Of a DNA stretch of 64,000 nt, positions 244 through 7,392 are shown one piece after another. Position numbers and translations under genes: made by a program. The stretch's first letter is position 1; every line of letters begins with the position of its first letter. The notes beneath the pieces are model-generated. The model worked only from the letters and a program-made list of their open reading frames with translations, made no database searches and was not told where the DNA came from. The DNA is from Escherichia phage nieznany. The stretch lies in the sequence record NC_052659.1; one strand, 5' to 3'.

Positions 244-426
244 AATACTTGTTGGTTGTGTTTGAAAATATTTGTTTTGCAATAGGGTTGTTTGTTGTAA
301 TTTTTGTATTGACAAGCGTAATCAACGGCAGTAAAGTGAGTTTATACCGAGATGGAGAGCAACTTTATTGCTTCTCTGGAGATTTCAAACACAGATGTAT
401 TAATAGCCAAAACGAGGAAAGCAAAT

Positions 427-864
427 ATGAAAAAACTAGCCCTGATTTTAATTGGTTGTATCTTTTTAACAGCTTGCGAGGATGAGACAAATCCTGCACA
501 ATACCAACAACCTCCTCAACAATACGCTCAACAAGGATCTGACGGAGATACAACTATTATCAACAATGGTGGCGGTTCTAGTAGTAGCGGTGTTGGTGAG
601 TTTGCTACAGGTATGTTGTTAGGGCATATGATGAGTGGCGGTAGTAATCGTAGCAGTGGGGATTATAACGATAACAGAACGATTATTAATAAGCATTATA
701 ATACACCTAAACCGAAAACTAATTTTTATGGTAAGCCTAAACAAGAGATAAAAACTTATGAAAAGCCGAGACAAACTTTTAAAACAAATAGTAGCTATAC
801 AACTCGTAAATCTTACAATAGCCCTTTAAGTAAAAAGAGTTCATCTCGTAGCAAGCGACGTTAA
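427..864 (+). CDS. putative lipoprotein, Gly/Ser-rich
   Basis: Internal ATG at 427 preceded by AGGAAA; N-terminus MKKLALILIGCIFLTAC = signal peptide with lipobox Cys; track start 352 rejected. Confidence 0.5.
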   Translation: MKKLALILIGCIFLTACEDETNPAQYQQPPQQYAQQGSDGDTTIINNGGGSSSSGVGEFATGMLLGHMMSGGSNRSSGDYNDNRTIINKHYNTPKPKTNFYGKPKQEIKTYEKPRQTFKTNSSYTTRKSYNSPLSKKSSSRSKRR

Positions 865-878
865 TAAGGAGAAAAACA

Positions 879-1472
879 ATGACAATTTCTATTCGTACTT
901 CCATTACAGGTGTTAAAAGTTTGCCTAATGCTTTGCAAATCACACGTGCTTTGAGGGATACGTTCTCTGCTGTGGATGAGCATAAGATGCTCGATAATCT
1001 CTCAAATTGGCCCTATTTTCATTATTTTAAAAATGAAGACGACGAGTTTATAGACGCTGTTTCTTACGGTTATGATTTCGGTAAGGAGGTTTCTCCTGAA
1101 GAATTTGTAGTTATGGTGTTCCCAAACGGTTTGCCTACTCGCAGTAAACGTAAAAAAGGACCAAAAAACAAGAAACGTGCTACTAATAAAGCTACCATTT
1201 TCTTTACTGATGGCACACAATATACGATTAAAGATTTTGAAGAGGTATCTTATACAGCAGGTGGGAATCTTTCTTTCTACACCATCAAAAAACAAAACTC
1301 TACGTTCAGCCATGTTTCTAACATGATTGAAATGTTAGTAGAAGATATTGAAAGCGTAGCTGTGTTAGGTATGCATAAAAGCTTTTTAATTACAAATATT
1401 TCAGATTTCAGTGCACGTTTATCTGGTCCTGATTTTGAAACCACGACCACGCATTTCACTTTTAAGGTGTAA
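879..1472 (+). CDS. hypothetical protein
   Basis: ORF with RBS AAGGAG upstream of ATG. Confidence 0.45.
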   Translation: MTISIRTSITGVKSLPNALQITRALRDTFSAVDEHKMLDNLSNWPYFHYFKNEDDEFIDAVSYGYDFGKEVSPEEFVVMVFPNGLPTRSKRKKGPKNKKRATNKATIFFTDGTQYTIKDFEEVSYTAGGNLSFYTIKKQNSTFSHVSNMIEMLVEDIESVAVLGMHKSFLITNISDFSARLSGPDFETTTTHFTFKV

Positions 1473-1475
1473 GTT

Positions 1476-2066
1476 ATGTATACCGAGAGAGACTTGCAAC
1501 TCTTGTGGTGGGAAGTGATGCAGGAAATAAAAGAAGATTTTCCTGTTTACTACAACATGTTACGTGAAGCAGGATATAAAGCTTGTGTTAGAAACAAAGT
1601 GAATAACTCTTTCGGTTGGTGCAACTACCGAGATAAAATTGTTGTTGTAAATTGGCACTTGCATAAGAACTCTACAAGAGATATGATCGTGGATACAATG
1701 AAGCACGAAATTGCTCATGCTATTGATGGTTGTATGGGTAAGTTTAGTAGACACGGTGCTCATTGGCAAAAACTGGCAGCAGAGTTAGGGGCTAATCCTA
1801 AAGCCACTTCCAAAGAGCCGTTGAACCACGAATATAAATATGTTCTTGTTCTGGTAGATAGGTTTGCGACAAGATGTGTTAGAGGTTATAATCGTAAACC
1901 TAATCGCATGTACCCAGGTAAGCAACCTAATATGTGGTTGAAATCAGATAAAGAAGGGACCGAAGGAAAATTATGGTTGTATAAATGGGACGATTGGGTT
2001 AAAGTAGCTAAAGAGTACGGTGTTTCACCATATATAAGAGATGCAGAAGAGGAGAATGAAGAATGA
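1476..2066 (+). CDS. putative SprT-like zinc metalloprotease
   Basis: HEIAH (HExxH) motif followed by a downstream His, as in SprT-like domains. Confidence 0.4.
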   Translation: MYTERDLQLLWWEVMQEIKEDFPVYYNMLREAGYKACVRNKVNNSFGWCNYRDKIVVVNWHLHKNSTRDMIVDTMKHEIAHAIDGCMGKFSRHGAHWQKLAAELGANPKATSKEPLNHEYKYVLVLVDRFATRCVRGYNRKPNRMYPGKQPNMWLKSDKEGTEGKLWLYKWDDWVKVAKEYGVSPYIRDAEEENEE

Positions 2067-3175
2067 CAAGTCCATTTTTAAAAGCAGCTACTGGCGGTCA
2101 GAAGAAGCCTGAAATGAGCGTATTTGCTGCAACAACAGATGCAAGTAAATCTGTATTCGCTCCAAGCGTGTTAGATGCCAGTCCTGTTTATGCACCAGCG
2201 GCACCGCAAGAAGTTCCAGTTTTGCCTTCTATGACCCGACAAGAGATCGAAGAGATTGGGGCAGAGGCAGGAACAACCTTGCGTTCCTTGAATGCCGAGG
2301 TATTAAAACATCAACGTAGTAATCAAGGCGATCAGATGAGTGAACGACTCACAGCTTTGATTAAACAGGCAAAACAACTTGATCCAAACTCTATTAAACA
2401 AAGCAAGGGTATTACTAAACTCATTAAAAAAGTTATGGGTATGAAAGAAGATCTGTTTGGGGAGTTTGATAATGTTAATAACCGTATTGAAGAGTTGGTA
2501 AAAAACCTTCAAATGGATATTCGCAAAGAAGAAGATTCCTTGGTATATCTTGAAAAGCTACATCAAGCTATTGGACAATATGCTGCAAGTTTGAACCGAG
2601 ATATGCAGCTTCTAACAGCAACCTATGAAAAAGAAGAACAAGCTTTGGCTGCTCTTCCAGAAGATGCAGTAGAACAGCGACAAGTGATCCGAGATACTTT
2701 GGATCTTCTGGAGATTCGTATTGCAGATTTAAAAGCATTGCGCCTACTGTGTGTCCAAATGGGACCGCGTGTACAAGGTATGCAAAAAGTTTCTGCAAGC
2801 TTAATGCGATCTGCGCGTAACATAGTAAATAATGTTATTCCTGCTTACTCTGCTAACTTCTCAATGTATATCGAGAGCTTACGTCAAATGAAAGCAGCAG
2901 AGACGCAGAATAACGTTCTTGATGAATTTAACCTGGCAATTAAACTGGGTAGCGATCTTGCCACACAGAATCAGATCGAAGCAGCAGCACTGGCTAACCG
3001 TCAAGTGTTGGATATTGAAACTCTGCGTCACGATCAGGAAAACTTGGTTAAGATGTTGGAAGAAACTAACCGCATCAATACGGAAGCCCGTGCTGCTCGT
3101 GTTGATTATATTAATGAAGTTCAATCTTTGGAAGACGGGATGGTAGCTGCTGTGAAACGAGGGCTTGGTAAATGA
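2063..3175 (+). CDS. alpha-helical coiled-coil protein, possibly TelA-like (toxic anion resistance family)
   Basis: 370 aa, predicted helical with coiled-coil character; sits upstream of vWA and TerD genes; family assignment is inference only. Confidence 0.35.
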   Translation: MTSPFLKAATGGQKKPEMSVFAATTDASKSVFAPSVLDASPVYAPAAPQEVPVLPSMTRQEIEEIGAEAGTTLRSLNAEVLKHQRSNQGDQMSERLTALIKQAKQLDPNSIKQSKGITKLIKKVMGMKEDLFGEFDNVNNRIEELVKNLQMDIRKEEDSLVYLEKLHQAIGQYAASLNRDMQLLTATYEKEEQALAALPEDAVEQRQVIRDTLDLLEIRIADLKALRLLCVQMGPRVQGMQKVSASLMRSARNIVNNVIPAYSANFSMYIESLRQMKAAETQNNVLDEFNLAIKLGSDLATQNQIEAAALANRQVLDIETLRHDQENLVKMLEETNRINTEARAARVDYINEVQSLEDGMVAAVKRGLGK

Positions 3176-3372
3176 GAATCCGTATCTATATAATTGATGA
3201 GGACATTGGTGTCCGTTATGATGACGAAAAACGATTCGCGCCGATGGGAGGCATATATCCCCCAAGTGTTCTAGCAGTTTGTCGTGATTGTTATATTTAT
3301 GAAGGTTGTCGTAACTTCCGTAAATTCGAACTCCTTGCAGATATTGACTTCAATGAGGAGGAGGAGGAGTAA
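3172..3372 (+). CDS. hypothetical protein
   Basis: ORF overlapping upstream stop by 4 nt (translational coupling); acidic C-terminus. Confidence 0.3.
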   Translation: MRIRIYIIDEDIGVRYDDEKRFAPMGGIYPPSVLAVCRDCYIYEGCRNFRKFELLADIDFNEEEEE

Positions 3373-3545
3373 TGAAAATATTACGAGTGAATATTGAAAC
3401 TGCTTGGTGTGGATGCAATGAGGTTGTGGATATCGAAATTGAAGATGATATGTCTCAAGAGGATATAGAAGATCTTGCACACGAAACCTTTCAGGACTAT
3501 TGTAATTACGGGTTCCATATTTTAGAGGAGGAAGAGGATGTTTAA
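3372..3545 (+). CDS. hypothetical small acidic protein (57 aa)
   Basis: ATG at 3372 preceded by GAGGAGGAGG; below the 60-aa cutoff of the ORF track. Confidence 0.25.
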   Translation: MKILRVNIETAWCGCNEVVDIEIEDDMSQEDIEDLAHETFQDYCNYGFHILEEEEDV

Positions 3546-3741
3546 CTACGATAACGACCCTAATATTATCCAGTTAACCCGACAAGAACTGATCACAATC
3601 ATTGAAGATGCTTTTATTGATGGCTGGAATACACAAGACAATGATTGGGGTGGACCCGAAGCTTTTCTGGAACATCATAAAGCTTATGGAGAATTTTGTG
3701 AAACCACTGTAGCTCTTGATAATCTGAAGGAGGGTTTGTAA
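3538..3741 (+). CDS. hypothetical protein
   Basis: ORF in tight early-gene array. Confidence 0.35.
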   Translation: MFNYDNDPNIIQLTRQELITIIEDAFIDGWNTQDNDWGGPEAFLEHHKAYGEFCETTVALDNLKEGL

Positions 3742-4304
3742 TGGGTTGTTTTAGCTTTTTGTGCAAAGAATCGGGCAAAGCTGCCCTTTCTACTTCTTTC
3801 GACGGATCACCTTGTTATCTCTTTCTTTTGAAGGACGGTGTTGTTATTGAAGAGATGTATGGCAACTATGATAGTTATGGTTGTGTTTTCTCTGGAAAGG
3901 AGGATGAAAATGGCGTTCGTGAACGGTTCGAATGGGCTATGGATTGGGGTAAGGTTTGTGATTTAATGCATTCCTCGAATCCAAGGGATGGTATCGCTAT
4001 GGTGCTGGAAGAGTATTTTACAGGTGAAATCCCTACAGAACAATCTGACGGAGATCCTAACCAAGGTTGGGGTGATGGCGAAGAAGATCCAGATTGTTTT
4101 TTCAGCACAGAAAAGAATAAGTTTAAACGTGTTGACAACCCTTATCACAAAGTGCATAATACTCTCATTGAAACAGAAGATGACAAGATGGAAATTGAAG
4201 AAGATGATCCTCTTGTAACACTTCCTATAAGTGAGTTACAAAAGATCACTAAGGAAGCTTACGATTTGGGCTTCAAAATTGGTAGAGGAGGTATGCGTGT
4301 TTAG
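3741..4304 (+). CDS. hypothetical protein
   Basis: ORF, RBS GGAGGG upstream. Confidence 0.4.
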   Translation: MGCFSFLCKESGKAALSTSFDGSPCYLFLLKDGVVIEEMYGNYDSYGCVFSGKEDENGVRERFEWAMDWGKVCDLMHSSNPRDGIAMVLEEYFTGEIPTEQSDGDPNQGWGDGEEDPDCFFSTEKNKFKRVDNPYHKVHNTLIETEDDKMEIEEDDPLVTLPISELQKITKEAYDLGFKIGRGGMRV

Positions 4305-4575
4305 ATTCAATATTCAAGAAGAAAAAAGTCAGGATTTACCTATTGCTTTCGAAGATCTTGACGTAGGGGCCACATTCATGTATTATGATGCCTATGAAGA
4401 CGCAGGGTTGGATACCTACCGTAACTTGGTGTTCATTAAAAATTCCACAAACAGTGCGATTTGTATTAATGGATCACTAGCACAACGAGGCTATACTCAT
4501 TGCATCCCACCAGATACAAATATGGTGGAAGTAGATTTAGAAGTTACCAATATTACACTTAAGAAGGAGAAATAA
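4297..4575 (+). CDS. small protein, paralog A of duplicated Ter-associated ORF
   Basis: GTG start 6 nt after GAGGAGG; paralogous to 5597..5866 (shared DLDVG.TF, ITLK); directly precedes vWA gene. Confidence 0.45.
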   Translation: MFRFNIQEEKSQDLPIAFEDLDVGATFMYYDAYEDAGLDTYRNLVFIKNSTNSAICINGSLAQRGYTHCIPPDTNMVEVDLEVTNITLKKEK

Positions 4576-4576
4576 T

Positions 4577-5371
4577 ATGTCCGAGAAAATCAGCCTGAAA
4601 AAACGTCAAGAAAACCTTGCTTTCTCTCTGAAAAAGAATAAGAACCTGAATGAAGGTAAGATTGTTCTTCGTGTAGCATGTGCTCTAGATATTTCTGGTA
4701 GTATGCATGGTCTATATTCTAGTGGGGTAGTGAGTGATTTTGTAGGTAAACTGCTTCCTTTTGGTATGCTGTTCGACGATAATCAACAAATTGATATGTG
4801 GGCCTTCAATACGAGTTCCCAAGAGCTTACTCCAGCAACAGCAGACGTTTACGATGACTATGTTGGTAAATGTATGCGTAATGTTCGTATCGGAGGTGGA
4901 ACAAATTACGCCCCTGTAATGGCAGATATCTACGATGAGTATTTTGGCACTGTTACCAAATATATTACCACTAAACAAGTGGTACAAGAGGAGGCTCCAA
5001 AGAAAGGCTTCTTTAATCGTCTGCTTGGTAAAACTGAAACAGTGTCTGTAGAGCGTGAAAAAGTTGTAGCTGTATCTGAACCAGGTGCTGACGTTACCCC
5101 TGGTGTTGTATTCTTCCAGACGGATGGTGAGAATGGTGATCCTAGTGCTGTTCGTCGTCTTATTGAAGAGAATAAGAATAAACCTATTTATTGGTTCATG
5201 GTTGGCGTTGGTAATGAGAAGTTTGGCTTCCTGAAAGAACTGGCAAATGCTTATGATAATGTTGGTTTTATTGGCATTAAAGATTTAGACTTGACAGATT
5301 CAGAGCTTTATGACAAACTCTTATCTGAAGAGTTCGGAGAGTGGGTTGTTAAAGTAGGTGCTAAAAAATGA
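4577..5371 (+). CDS. von Willebrand factor A domain protein with TerD-like N-terminal leader (TerY/TerF-like)
   Basis: MIDAS-like DISGS motif, GGGTNY and TDGENGD motifs; N-terminus SEKISLKK resembles TerD N-terminus. Confidence 0.55.
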   Translation: MSEKISLKKRQENLAFSLKKNKNLNEGKIVLRVACALDISGSMHGLYSSGVVSDFVGKLLPFGMLFDDNQQIDMWAFNTSSQELTPATADVYDDYVGKCMRNVRIGGGTNYAPVMADIYDEYFGTVTKYITTKQVVQEEAPKKGFFNRLLGKTETVSVEREKVVAVSEPGADVTPGVVFFQTDGENGDPSAVRRLIEENKNKPIYWFMVGVGNEKFGFLKELANAYDNVGFIGIKDLDLTDSELYDKLLSEEFGEWVVKVGAKK

Positions 5372-5616
5372 TCGACGAGCTTGCCTCTCAAGTCGTAGAA
5401 AATTATTGGCGCGAGAGAGAAGCTTTCATTATGCGCAGTCTCAAAGAGTATTTCATTGGGACTGTGCGAATGGAAGATATTGTAAGTAGAGTAGAGATTC
5501 ATGTATGGCCCGATTATGAAGAATGGGTTGACAAAGAAAATGAAAATGCTATAATTCTTCGTATATACAAACCGGAGATAACATTAGGAGGAAGAAGTGT
5601 TAAACTTCGAAATTGA
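5368..5616 (+). CDS. hypothetical protein
   Basis: ORF overlapping neighbours by a few nt. Confidence 0.35.
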   Translation: MIDELASQVVENYWREREAFIMRSLKEYFIGTVRMEDIVSRVEIHVWPDYEEWVDKENENAIILRIYKPEITLGGRSVKLRN

Positions 5617-5866
5617 TGAGCAAAAAGTAAATAAACGATGCCTTACCATTAAAGATTTGGATGTAGGAGATACTTTCGTCTATGAAAATGCATTTGACGA
5701 AAATGGTTTAGACCTTAGTGAAATCATTGTTTATTTAAAAGTAGATGATGGGGAAAATGATTATTCTGCTGTAGAACTAAACCATCATGCACAATTAGTA
5801 TCAATCCAAAACACATCTAAGCTTTTGGAAGTAGAATTGACTGTAACTGGTATTACACTTAAATAA
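5597..5866 (+). CDS. small protein, paralog B of duplicated Ter-associated ORF
   Basis: GTG start after AGGAGG; paralog of 4297..4575; directly precedes TerD gene. Confidence 0.45.
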   Translation: MLNFEIDEQKVNKRCLTIKDLDVGDTFVYENAFDENGLDLSEIIVYLKVDDGENDYSAVELNHHAQLVSIQNTSKLLEVELTVTGITLK

Positions 5867-5881
5867 TAGAGGAGACAAAAG

Positions 5882-6484
5882 ATGACTGATAAAATTTCCC
5901 TGAAAAAAGGCTCTAGCGAAAAAATTTCCCTGAAGAAAGTTGCTCCGGCTCTGAAAGAACTGCGCCTGGAATTCTCTTGGAAATCTGATTCTAAACTGGA
6001 TCTGGATGTAAGTGCACTGGTTTGTCGTCACAATGCCGCTGGCAATCCTGAAATGCTGTCTGCACGTCATCTGGTTTGCTATGCTAACAAGTTTGATCCT
6101 GAACGTTCTACCTTCGCTGGTGACGATGTTCGTGATGGGACTGGCAGCATGGAGCAGATTGATATTACTCTGGCTAAAATCTCTCCTGATGCACAAGAGA
6201 TTGCCTTTGTTCTGACCATTGATGATGATACAGGTCTGAAACGTTTTGGTCATGCTTCTGAAGGTATGCTTAAAATCTTCGACTCCGAGCGTAATGTGGA
6301 AATTCTGGATTTTGACTTCCTGGCTCCTGAAGTAGCTGGCAACACAATCTGCCACGTGGCTTCCCTGGTTCGTGAAGATGGAGAATGGAAGCTGAAAGCA
6401 TATGGTGTAGGTAAAGCTGGTCTGGATATTTGCGATGTGGTGATGGCCTTCGGTGGTAAAAAAGAATGGTATGAATGTCCATAA
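5882..6484 (+). CDS. TerD-domain protein (tellurite resistance TerD/TerE/TerZ family)
   Basis: N-terminal repeated KISLKKG/KISLKKV, central LTIDDDTG acidic patch, C-terminal GEWK.KAYGVGKAGLD, about 200 aa: pattern of TerD family. Confidence 0.7.
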   Translation: MTDKISLKKGSSEKISLKKVAPALKELRLEFSWKSDSKLDLDVSALVCRHNAAGNPEMLSARHLVCYANKFDPERSTFAGDDVRDGTGSMEQIDITLAKISPDAQEIAFVLTIDDDTGLKRFGHASEGMLKIFDSERNVEILDFDFLAPEVAGNTICHVASLVREDGEWKLKAYGVGKAGLDICDVVMAFGGKKEWYECP

Positions 6485-6502
6485 TAATTAACAAATGATT
6501 TT

Positions 6503-6523
6503 GAGGGGGAGAAGTCCCCCCTC
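6503..6523 (+). terminator. GC-rich hairpin after TerD gene (weak intrinsic terminator)
   Basis: GAGGGGGAG..TCCCCCCTC stem; no clear T-run. Confidence 0.3.
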
Positions 6524-6524
6524 T

Positions 6525-6553
6525 TGCAATAAAGCCTCTATCGTGTTATACTA
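6525..6553 (+). promoter_or_regulatory. sigma70-like promoter (TTGCAA-17-TATACT)
   Basis: -35 TTGCAA 6525..6530, 17-nt spacer, -10 TATACT 6548..6553; RBS AGGAGG and TTG start at 6585 follow. Confidence 0.5.
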
Positions 6554-6584
6554 GAAGTTCGTTAACTTAAAAAGGAGGCAAAAT

Positions 6585-7106
6585 TTGCTGATAAAAAACT
6601 TTGTAACAGTTGCGTTACTATCCTTAACTGCTTTTACATTTACACCTGTTGTGGCGAAAGCCGAAGCTGCAAACGTAAAAACCGCTAAAGTAGTTCACAA
6701 ATGTACAAAGCAATATAATGATAAAATTCTATTAGCTTGTGCAATTTACGCAGAAGGTCGCGGTCTGGGTAAAAAAGGAATGAATGCCGTTGGGAATGTG
6801 GTAATCAACAGAAGAAATGATGCCTACTTCCCTAACACAGTCAAGGGAGTCTTGTTCCAGAAAGGGCAATTCTCATATGCGAAAACTTTTAACGTGACAG
6901 AGAAAGATAAGTGGCAGGAAGCAAAAGCAATAGCGGAGCGTTTACTTTATTTAGAGAAACATTTTCCTGAATTGCGGTCTGTTTTAGATGTTACTAAAGG
7001 TGCTCTATACTTCAAGAAACGGAATATAAGGACACACTGGGAGCGTGATATGCGTCTTGTTTATCGAGATAAAGTGCATGGTTTCTATCTACCAAAGGGG
7101 AGTTAA
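6585..7106 (+). CDS. SleB/CwlJ-like cell wall hydrolase with N-terminal signal sequence (endolysin candidate)
   Basis: AIYAEGRG...GMNAVGNVVINRR...VLFQKGQFSYA matches Hydrolase_2 signature; hydrophobic N-terminus. Confidence 0.55.
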   Translation: MLIKNFVTVALLSLTAFTFTPVVAKAEAANVKTAKVVHKCTKQYNDKILLACAIYAEGRGLGKKGMNAVGNVVINRRNDAYFPNTVKGVLFQKGQFSYAKTFNVTEKDKWQEAKAIAERLLYLEKHFPELRSVLDVTKGALYFKKRNIRTHWERDMRLVYRDKVHGFYLPKGS

Positions 7107-7107
7107 A

Positions 7108-7392
7108 ATGCAAGAAGATAATACTGTTGTTGTAGCAAGTTACCTGGTTGTCGGTCTTACCGAAGAGGACGTATACTACACCCGTAAACATTTGGAAGCA
7201 TACGCTACTTTGTTTATGGAAGATGAAAAGGATGTAGATAAATATAGCATTGATATGATCAACGACAGTATTTATCCTTGTATGGTTCTTAAAGTAGATG
7301 CTGTGCTGTGGGAGCGTTTTGCAAGGACTCATGATGCTGTAGAATGCTCCGCAGTAATGTCTCAAAACAACATTTTAGGGGAGATTCACTGA
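7108..7392 (+). CDS. hypothetical protein
   Basis: ATG at 7108 after AGGGGAG; track start 7045 rejected. Confidence 0.4.
   Translation: MQEDNTVVVASYLVVGLTEEDVYYTRKHLEAYATLFMEDEKDVDKYSIDMINDSIYPCMVLKVDAVLWERFARTHDAVECSAVMSQNNILGEIH

What the first reader, a model, noticed from the sequence alone, without database searches (positions are those of the whole stretch)
4297..5866. Duplicated two-gene cassette: small ~90-aa ORF followed by a TerD-like gene
4297..4575 and 5597..5866 are clear paralogs (VFRFNIQEEK vs VLNFEIDEQK starts, shared DLDVG.TF and C-terminal ITLK). Both use GTG starts 6 nt after a strong SD and each ends immediately before a gene opening with the TerD-like KISLKK motif. This looks like a tandem duplication of a partner-plus-effector unit, with one copy having swapped the TerD body for a vWA domain.
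Basis: seen in the sequence. Interest (0 to 1): 0.6.

Follow-up and report, generated by a model that had tools for sequence, protein, structure and literature searches.

The report
Paralogous small partners in phage Ter module
Two real, anciently duplicated ~90-residue genes of unknown function sit directly in front of the vWA and TerD genes of a coliphage's tellurite-resistance-like (Ter) module, and probably encode small accessory subunits of those proteins, but no two-gene cassette was duplicated.

Summary
The window is a Phapecoctavirus (ESCO13/phAPEC8-like coliphage, 99.8% identity). ORFs 4297-4575 and 5597-5866 are true paralogs: 34% identity, BLASTP E=2e-14, and no shuffle of 5000 reached the observed score. 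Both fall in PHROG 11278. Each lies just upstream of a gene that opens with KISLKK.

The downstream genes are unrelated full-length family members: vWA-TerF-like (PF10138) and TerD (PF02342). The KISLKK hairpin is native to both families. It occurs in bacterial vWA-TerF-like proteins and in TerD-vWA fusions, so no TerD body was swapped for a vWA domain. Only the small gene was duplicated, and anciently, because both copies persist in a lineage only 45-52% identical.

The small protein models confidently (pLDDT 86) as an acidic SH3-like beta-barrel with no conserved catalytic or metal-binding residues. In every related phage contig examined it lies next to the vWA-TerD pair, before vWA, before TerD, or both.

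The most likely role, which is inferred, is a co-expressed accessory subunit (adaptor or chaperone) of the phage Ter module. It may bind the shared basic N-terminal hairpin. This is a modestly interesting new component of a known system.

The parts
2063..3175 (+). TelA-like gene, a component of the phage Ter module
   Evidence: PF05816 TelA, E=3.2e-33. It is conserved upstream of the small/vWA/TerD block in phi92, 05F01, L005, L009 and L010.
3741..4304 (+). 187-aa conserved gene of unknown function (phrog_14928). Its stop overlaps the start of small A.
   Evidence: Homologs lie directly upstream of the pre-vWA small gene in phi92 (gp175), L005 and L009.
4132..4160 (+). Sigma-70-like promoter TTGACA-17-CATAAT (11 of 12), 137 nt upstream of small A
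   Evidence: The same 11/12 site is present in L005 and phi92. This is a consensus match only and has not been shown to be functional.
4297..4575 (+). Small A: 92 aa, GTG start, PHROG 11278, predicted SH3-like beta-barrel, pI 4.4. Its last codons (KKEK) carry the Shine-Dalgarno sequence of the vWA gene.
4577..5371 (+). vWA-TerF-like protein (264 aa) with an N-terminal basic hairpin MSEKISLKKRQENLAFSLKK and a MIDAS-type DISGS motif
   Evidence: PF10138, 130.1 bits against a cutoff of 29.4. The N-terminal hairpin is family-wide. The DxSxS motif can be read in the sequence.
5368..5616 (+). orf82 (phrog_22387, function unknown). It is present only in the two-copy arrangement and overlaps the vWA stop and the small B start.
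   Evidence: The 80-aa ortholog in L005 matches at E=3e-26. It is absent from phi92 and 05F01.
5528..5555 (+). Perfect sigma-70 consensus promoter (TTGACA-16-TATAAT with TGn), 42 nt before small B and inside orf82
   Evidence: 12/12, and conserved at 12/12 in L005 4935-4962. Function is inferred.
5597..5866 (+). Small B: 89 aa, GTG start, PHROG 11278, paralog of small A, pI 4.3
5882..6484 (+). TerD-domain protein (200 aa) with strongly expression-optimised codon usage
   Evidence: PF02342, 98.9 bits against a cutoff of 25.3. It aligns to solved TerD 2KXT at E=1.5e-15. CTG is used for 18 of 19 Leu codons.
6503..6523 (+). GC-rich 7-bp hairpin after TerD, possibly the end of the transcription unit (weak evidence)
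   Evidence: fold; z = -1.7 for the 61-nt stretch. The terminator scan did not call it because there is no T-run.

Best explanation
SHOWN. The region belongs to the abbreviated Ter (tellurite-resistance-like) module of a Phapecoctavirus. In the window this module comprises TelA, a vWA-TerF-like protein and TerD; in the near-identical phage ESCO13, TerC, a Macro-domain protein and a ComF-like PRTase lie just beyond the window's left end. The two ~90-aa ORFs are genuine paralogs of a family (PHROG 11278) found so far only in phage and phage-like sequences. The family is acidic, models confidently as an SH3-like small beta-barrel with one helix, and has no conserved catalytic or metal-ligand residues. 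In the examined relatives the family was found in only two slots: immediately upstream of the vWA gene, with the vWA Shine-Dalgarno sequence inside its last codons, or immediately upstream of TerD. Some phages fill one slot and this genus fills both. Only the small gene was duplicated, possibly together with acquisition of orf82, and the event predates the split between the window lineage and L005. The downstream genes are not duplicates of each other.

INFERRED. Each small protein is a co-expressed accessory subunit of the vWA/TerD pair, acting as an adaptor, assembly chaperone or regulator. After duplication, A specialised for the vWA protein and B for TerD. The most likely docking site is the strongly basic N-terminal xSLKK...xSLKK beta-hairpin, which is the only element the two downstream proteins share. 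SH3-like barrels typically bind short peptides or strands, and the small proteins carry net charges of -2 to -11 against +4.5 to +7.5 for the hairpins. The whole module probably serves membrane or ion-linked stress handling or superinfection exclusion during infection, as others have proposed for phage Ter genes.
For: - Identity of the window: 99.8% to ESCO13.
- Family assignments.
- Paralogy.
- Restriction to phages: an exhaustive profile search of 1.84 billion representatives found only 13 full-length members of 87-93 aa (plus two fragments). Every one whose context I examined lies in a phage or phage-like contig.
- Linkage: small-vWA-TerD in phi92, 05F01 and L009-L011; vWA-small-TerD in L006, L007 and L013, and small-TerD in L008 and L012; both slots filled in the window and in L005. 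In L006 and L013 the surrounding genes differ but the trio is kept.
- Database counts: 125 phage records carry the family and 68 of them hold two copies.
- Coupling: a 1-nt gap (A) and a 15-nt gap (B), with the Shine-Dalgarno sequence inside the small ORF's 3' end.
- Age of the duplication: A clade at 85% and B clade at 74% bootstrap.
- The hairpin is family-wide.
- Charges.
- Within each genome the vWA and TerD hairpins share KISLKK or K(V/L)SLKK.
- Published proposals for phage Ter modules: PMC7824862 and PMC8386662.
Against: - There is no direct evidence of a physical interaction. Co-folding could not be run because the structure jobs were exhausted.
- All carriers are related phages with conserved synteny across this region, so part of the linkage may be inherited gene order rather than selection.
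- Phages with more distant vWA-TerD pairs (Caulobacter, Rhizobium and Pseudomonas phages; L015-L017) lack the family, so it is not essential to Ter function.
- TerD is codon-optimised (CTG for 18 of 19 Leu) but small B is not (0 of 12). This argues against a 1:1 structural partner and fits a sub-stoichiometric chaperone or regulator better.
- An acidic pI is common among small phage proteins, so the charge complementarity is weak evidence.
Confidence: 0.55

Rival explanations
1. One reading: a tandem duplication of a two-gene unit (small gene plus a TerD-like gene), after which one copy replaced its TerD body with a vWA domain and kept the KISLKK leader.
For: Colinear nucleotide similarity of about 76-77% across the small-gene end, the Shine-Dalgarno sequence and the start of the next gene, at a constant offset of about 1300-1305 nt. 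The N-termini MSEKISLKK and M..SEKISLKK are similar (15 of 5000 shuffles reach the score).
Against: The vWA protein is a full-length PF10138 member. Its xSLxK hairpin is present in bacterial and distant phage homologs and in TerD-vWA fusions. vWA-TerD adjacency exists with one small gene or none. The junction similarity is confined to codons for conserved residues (EV.L.VT.ITLK; M..KISLKK) plus the Shine-Dalgarno sequence. HHalign and BLAST show no similarity beyond the hairpin.
Confidence: 0.05
2. The small genes are passengers. They are lineage-specific small phage ORFs, for example host-takeover factors, whose position next to vWA and TerD reflects inherited synteny and local duplication rather than any function in the Ter module.
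For: All carriers are related large myovirus-like genomes with conserved gene order from TelA to the cell-wall hydrolase. Ter modules in other phages and bacteria work without this family. There is no annotation or defence-system hit.
Against: The gene changes slot (before vWA or before TerD) but never leaves the pair. It is retained with vWA and TerD in L006 and L013, where the flanking genes differ. It is translationally coupled to the downstream gene. Both paralogs have been kept through divergence down to 45-52% identity. A second, unrelated small family occupies the same two slots in more distant modules, which suggests the slots themselves are functionally meaningful.
Confidence: 0.22
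3. The small proteins are metal-sensing or metal-handling SH3-like domains, in the manner of FeoA or the DtxR C-terminal domain, that feed into the Ca2+-binding TerD and the MIDAS-containing vWA protein.
Confidence: 0.07
4. The small proteins are Sm/KOW-like RNA-binding translational regulators that control expression of the gene immediately downstream.
Against: All family members are acidic (pI 4.3-5.3, net charge -2 to -11), which is atypical for nucleic-acid binders. They have no conserved basic patch: only K48 is conserved.
Confidence: 0.06

Closest known systems
Ter (tellurite-resistance / phage-inhibition) stress-response system, in the abbreviated phage-borne form with TerC, TelA, TerF-type vWA and TerD (Anantharaman, Iyer and Aravind 2012; Iyer et al. 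2021, PMC7824862; phiKp34 in PMC8386662)
   Same: TelA, vWA-TerF-like and TerD are present in the window. TerC, a Macro-domain protein and PRTase_3 lie just outside it in ESCO13. The same gene set has been described for other virulent phages.
   Different: None of the papers I could search mention a small SH3-like component or its duplication. The family is absent from bacterial Ter loci and from distant phage Ter loci.
PHROG 11278 (function unknown)
   Same: Both small ORFs are full-length members (E=4e-51 and 7e-45).
   Different: The PHROG carries no function, fold or context annotation. The linkage to vWA and TerD and the two-slot pattern are added here.
SH3-like small beta-barrel adaptor domains (FeoA, DtxR C-terminal domain, HspQ, Tudor/KOW)
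   Different: There is no sequence similarity (PDB profile search gives nothing better than E=0.16). The extra helix at residues 30-36 and the GxTF / GLD motifs are family-specific. Partner binding is untested.
TerF (a natural TerD-vWA fusion)
   Same: It shows that TerD and this vWA type function together, and that the xSLxK hairpin precedes the vWA domain (P0103 and P0106).
   Different: In this phage the two domains are separate genes, each preceded by its own small-protein gene and its own promoter-like site.

Membership tests
TerD (PF02342), gene 5882-6484 | Pfam score above the gathering threshold over the whole domain | tested here: met
   98.9 bits against 25.3, covering residues 5-179 and model positions 3-177 of 187.
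TerD (PF02342), gene 5882-6484 | Alignable to a solved TerD structure, including the N-terminal xSLxK-xSLxK hairpin | tested here: met
   2KXT at E=1.5e-15, residues 5-183 against 3-180; ISLKKGSSEKISLKK aligns to VSLSKGG--NVSLSK.
TerD (PF02342), gene 5882-6484 | Ca2+ binding | not testable with these tools
   The region GDDVRDGTGSMEQ aligns to GDNRTGEGDGDDES of 2KXT. Ligand conservation is only partial by eye.
vWA-TerF-like (PF10138), gene 4577-5371 | Pfam score above the gathering threshold | tested here: met
   130.1 bits against 29.4, in two stretches. All 62 homologs carry PF10138.
vWA-TerF-like (PF10138), gene 4577-5371 | MIDAS DxSxS motif | tested here: met
   ALDISGSM at residues 36-43, read from the sequence. 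Metal binding itself was not tested.
PHROG 11278, small A and small B | Full-length profile match | tested here: met
   E=4.2e-51 (residues 1-92 of 92) and 7e-45 (residues 1-89 against a 92-position profile).
SH3-like small beta-barrel fold, small A | Five-stranded barrel topology matching solved SH3-like domains | tested here: inconclusive
Segmental tandem duplication of a two-gene cassette | Both genes of unit 1 are paralogous to both genes of unit 2 | tested here: not met
   The small genes are paralogous. The downstream genes share only the N-terminal hairpin and belong to different Pfam families.
Segmental tandem duplication of a two-gene cassette | The shared leader is specific to this locus rather than a family-wide feature | tested here: not met
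   The hairpin is present in Neobacillus P0097, in distant phage vWA proteins and in TerD-vWA fusions, and in solved TerD.
DUF11 / DUF7507 Ig-like repeat (suggested by the profile-search hits) | Domain-length reciprocal similarity | tested here: not met
   Each stretch scores 3-5 bits over about 15-18 residues, and significance comes only from summing up to 22 repeats. Pfam finds no DUF11 in A or B. The model is not an Ig-like sandwich.
Known anti-phage defence systems (PADLOC) | Match to any PADLOC model | tested here: not met
   No hits for seven proteins of the block.

The most novel reading that the evidence does not exclude
The PHROG 11278 proteins are dedicated SH3-like adaptors that recognise the conserved basic xSLKK hairpin at the N-terminus of TerD-family and TerF-type vWA proteins, and so control assembly of the Ter sub-membrane complex. 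The phage has evolved one adaptor per client. An analogous, non-homologous small family (the 110-116-aa proteins of L015 and L016) does the same job in other phages. If so, the N-terminal hairpin would be a previously unrecognised docking element of the long-enigmatic Ter system, and the phage module would be a minimal model for dissecting it.
Probability: 0.2. Interest if true: 0.55.

Novelty: new variant of a known kind. Interest (0 to 1): 0.33.

Why it matters
The Ter system is widespread in bacteria, plasmids and phages and is linked to tellurite, colicin and phage resistance, yet its mechanism is still unclear. A small, phage-specific protein family that always travels with the vWA-TerD pair, and has been duplicated so that each partner has its own copy, gives a concrete and cheap handle: two 90-residue proteins to pull down, co-fold or delete. 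This could reveal how TerD and the TerF-type vWA protein are assembled or regulated. If no interaction is found, the result is simply a corrected annotation: paralogous hypothetical genes within a known phage Ter module.

Tried and rejected
- Remote homology of the small family to TerD, prompted by the shared 'DLDV' string. HHalign gives 0.6% probability, so I rejected it.
- Homology to DUF11/DUF7507 repeats of giant surface proteins, which appeared in the exhaustive profile search at E down to 1e-26. This is an artefact of summing 3-5-bit motif matches over many repeats.
- The first AF2 run, with 8 close sequences, was unusable (pLDDT 42). Only the 17-sequence alignment gave a confident model.
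- The Foldseek afdb50 library was unavailable.
- The search for related loci with the family alignment failed because no stretch was conserved enough. With single distant members it returned nothing or spurious loci (L019 and L020).
- I looked for divergent family members beside vWA and TerD in L015-L017 and found none. A different small family occupies those positions.
- PADLOC and NCBIfam gave nothing relevant. The PDB sequence profile gave nothing.
- Anantharaman et al. 2012 could not be read because it is not held.
- The longer in-frame start for A (GTG 4231, 114 aa) was rejected. Orthologs start at the MF.F position, and 4231-4296 lies inside the conserved C-terminus of the upstream gene.
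Full report
**What the window is.** Region 1400-7200 is 99.8% identical to Escherichia phage ESCO13, and 63 Phapecoctavirus-type records cover at least 80% of it at 95% identity or more.

**Check of the observation.**
- The two products, from 4297-4575 (92 aa) and 5597-5866 (89 aa), align end to end at 34% identity, BLASTP E=2e-14 with compositional adjustment.
- The Smith-Waterman score is 123 against 26 +/- 4.5 for 5000 shuffles, and no shuffle reached it.
- Both proteins hit PHROG 11278 over their full length.
- Each uses a GTG start 5 nt after GGAGG. In the divergent ortholog locus L005 both starts are ATG at the homologous positions.
- A ends 1 nt before the ATG of 4577-5371, and B ends 15 nt before the ATG of 5882-6484. 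Both downstream products open with M(S/T)(E/D)KISLKK.
- DNA similarity between the two units is limited to about 78 nt at the junction (76-77%). That stretch encodes the conserved last strand of the small protein, the Shine-Dalgarno sequence, and the conserved first nine codons of the next gene.

**What the neighbours are.**
- 4577-5371 is a vWA-TerF-like protein (PF10138, 130 bits) with a DISGS MIDAS-type motif.
- 5882-6484 is a TerD protein (PF02342, 99 bits). It aligns to solved Klebsiella TerD 2KXT from residue 5.
- 2063-3175 is TelA, 1476-2066 is SprT-like and 6585-7106 is a cell-wall hydrolase.
- In ESCO13, just beyond the window's left end, lie TerC, a Macro-domain protein and a ComF-like PRTase_3.
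- Together these form the phage-borne Ter module already described in the literature for jumbo and related phages and for phiKp34.

**Why the cassette-duplication-with-body-swap reading fails.**
- The two downstream proteins share nothing beyond the first ~20 residues.
- The doubled KISLKK of TerD is the native first hairpin of the TerD fold.
- The equivalent xSLxK(R)...xSLxK hairpin of the vWA protein is family-wide. It appears in distant phage homologs, in a Neobacillus protein, and in TerD-vWA fusions, where it sits between a complete TerD domain and the vWA domain.
- The vWA-TerD pair occurs with one small gene before vWA (phi92 gp174-173-172, Klebsiella phage 05F01, L009-L011). It also occurs with one small gene between vWA and TerD (L006, L007, L013; L008 and L012 are partial). 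It occurs with both in the window and in L005, and with none in L015-L017.
- In the phage database 125 records carry the family. Of these, 68 have two copies: 63 Phapecoctavirus records plus the phiWec179/181 and PsgM04F group. The Justusliebigvirus records have one copy.
- A neighbour-joining tree separates an A (pre-vWA) clade at 85% bootstrap, a B clade at 74% and a clade of the vWA-small-TerD loci at 88%. L005 carries both A (52% identity) and B (45%), so the duplication is old. Whether B plus orf82 was gained or lost in particular lineages is not resolved.

**What the small protein is.**
- An exhaustive HMM search of 1.84 billion representatives found only 13 full-length members of 87-93 aa, plus two fragments. 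Every member whose genomic context I examined lies in a phage or phage-like contig.
- The high-scoring giant proteins in that search are DUF11/DUF7507 repeat proteins. They match a 15-18-residue motif at 3-5 bits per repeat, which is an additive artefact.
- With the 17-sequence alignment AF2 gives pLDDT 85.7 and pTM 0.72: a small beta-barrel with one helix.
- The best BFVD hit is the phAPEC8 B paralog. All other BFVD hits are uncharacterised small phage proteins.
- The conserved positions are G, F, L, T, K and A, with no catalytic or metal-ligand signature.
- All members are acidic (pI 4.3-5.3). The N-terminal 28 residues of both clients carry +4.5 to +7.5 in otherwise acidic proteins.
- There is no relationship to TerD itself (HHalign 0.6%).

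**Expression anatomy.**
- A perfect sigma-70 consensus (TTGACA-16-TGnTATAAT) lies at 5528-5555, inside orf82 and 42 nt before small B. It is conserved at 12/12 in L005.
- An 11/12 site at 4132-4160 precedes small A and is conserved in L005 and phi92.
- Weaker promoter-like sites (10/12) also lie upstream of the TerD gene, or of the small gene in front of it, in the single-copy loci.
- TerD uses CTG for 18 of 19 Leu codons and CGT or CGC for all Arg codons. Small B uses CTG for 0 of 12 Leu codons. TerD is probably made in much larger amounts than small B.
- A 7-bp GC hairpin follows TerD.
- The locus therefore looks like two parallel units, each with a promoter, a small gene and a client gene, but functional promoter activity is only inferred.

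**Mechanism.**
- Shown: the family was found only next to the vWA-TerD pair, although its position within the pair changes. It is translationally coupled to the downstream gene and has been kept in two copies over long divergence.
- Inferred: the small protein is an accessory subunit of the vWA/TerD proteins, acting as an adaptor, chaperone or regulator, and has sub-functionalised into a vWA-specific copy and a TerD-specific copy. The shared basic N-terminal hairpin is the most economical docking site. The codon-usage contrast favours a sub-stoichiometric chaperone or regulator over a structural 1:1 partner.
- The main rival is that these are passenger ORFs held in place by inherited synteny.
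- A second, unrelated small family (110-116 aa; L015 3653-3985 and L016 4744-5094, E=5e-10) sits in the same two slots in more distant phage Ter modules. This mildly favours functional slots over chance.

**Novelty and verdict.** The Ter module in phages is known and the small family is catalogued, without a function, in PHROGs. Its SH3-like fold, its exclusive linkage to the vWA-TerD pair and its ancient duplication do not appear in the literature I could search. This is a new accessory variant of a known system and is modestly interesting.

Noticed in passing
window 5528-5555 (+): A perfect 12/12 sigma-70 consensus promoter with an extended -10 lies inside the coding sequence of orf82, 42 nt upstream of small B. 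It is conserved at 12/12 in the divergent locus L005 (4935-4962).
   Followed up: partly
window 5882-6484: TerD has strikingly expression-optimised codon usage: CTG for 18 of 19 Leu codons, CGT or CGC for all 8 Arg codons, and Fop of about 0.64. Its neighbours differ sharply (small B uses CTG for 0 of 12 Leu codons and has GC3 of 0.20). This suggests very high TerD expression.
   Followed up: partly
L015 3653-3985 and L016 4744-5094: A second small-protein family (110 and 116 aa, 27% identity, E=5e-10), unrelated to PHROG 11278, sits before vWA in one distant phage contig and between vWA and TerD in another. This mirrors the two slots used by the family studied here.
   Followed up: partly
ESCO13 NC_047770.1 116200-118802 (L014), just left of window position 1: The Ter module extends beyond the window, with TerC (PF03741), a Macro-domain protein and a ComF-like PRTase_3 (PF15610). 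The phage therefore carries a fairly complete Ter system, including a putative nucleotide-metabolite arm.
   Followed up: partly
window 4577-4636 and 5882-5938; same genes in L003-L013: Within each genome the vWA and TerD N-terminal hairpins use the same variant: KISLKK in the window, L005, phi92 and L007, and K(V/L)SLKK in L006 and L013. This hints at co-variation, but the sample is too small to test.
   Followed up: no
window 4560-4579: All pre-vWA copies of the small protein end in a (K/E/G)EK extension whose codons (AAGGAGAAA) form the Shine-Dalgarno sequence of the vWA gene. The pre-TerD copies lack the extension.
   Followed up: yes
window 3741-4304: A 187-aa protein (phrog_14928) opens with the Cys-rich sequence MGCFSFLCKESGK and has no Pfam hit. 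It always precedes the pre-vWA small gene (phi92 gp175, L005, L009) and overlaps its start. It may belong to the same functional block.
   Followed up: no
one search hit list (records MG065650.1, OP562383.1, MH252123.1, OR584014.1): Records labelled as Campylobacter, Acinetobacter and Klebsiella phages are about 98.5-99% identical to this E. coli Phapecoctavirus region, and a record labelled as a Pseudomonas phage (PsgM04F) carries the same two-copy small-gene arrangement at lower identity. The host labels may be unreliable, or the host range may be unusually broad.
   Followed up: no
search (P0011, P0014, P0016 and others): The small-family HMM gives E-values down to 1e-26 against giant DUF11/DUF7507 repeat proteins, purely by summing 3-5-bit matches to a GDTFxY-like motif across up to 22 repeats. 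This is a caution for profile searches with short queries.
   Followed up: yes
window 352-864: This ORF has a lipoprotein-type signal (MKKLALILIGCIFLTAC) and a low-complexity Ser/Gly/Asn-rich body. It lies upstream of the SprT-like and TelA genes.
   Followed up: no
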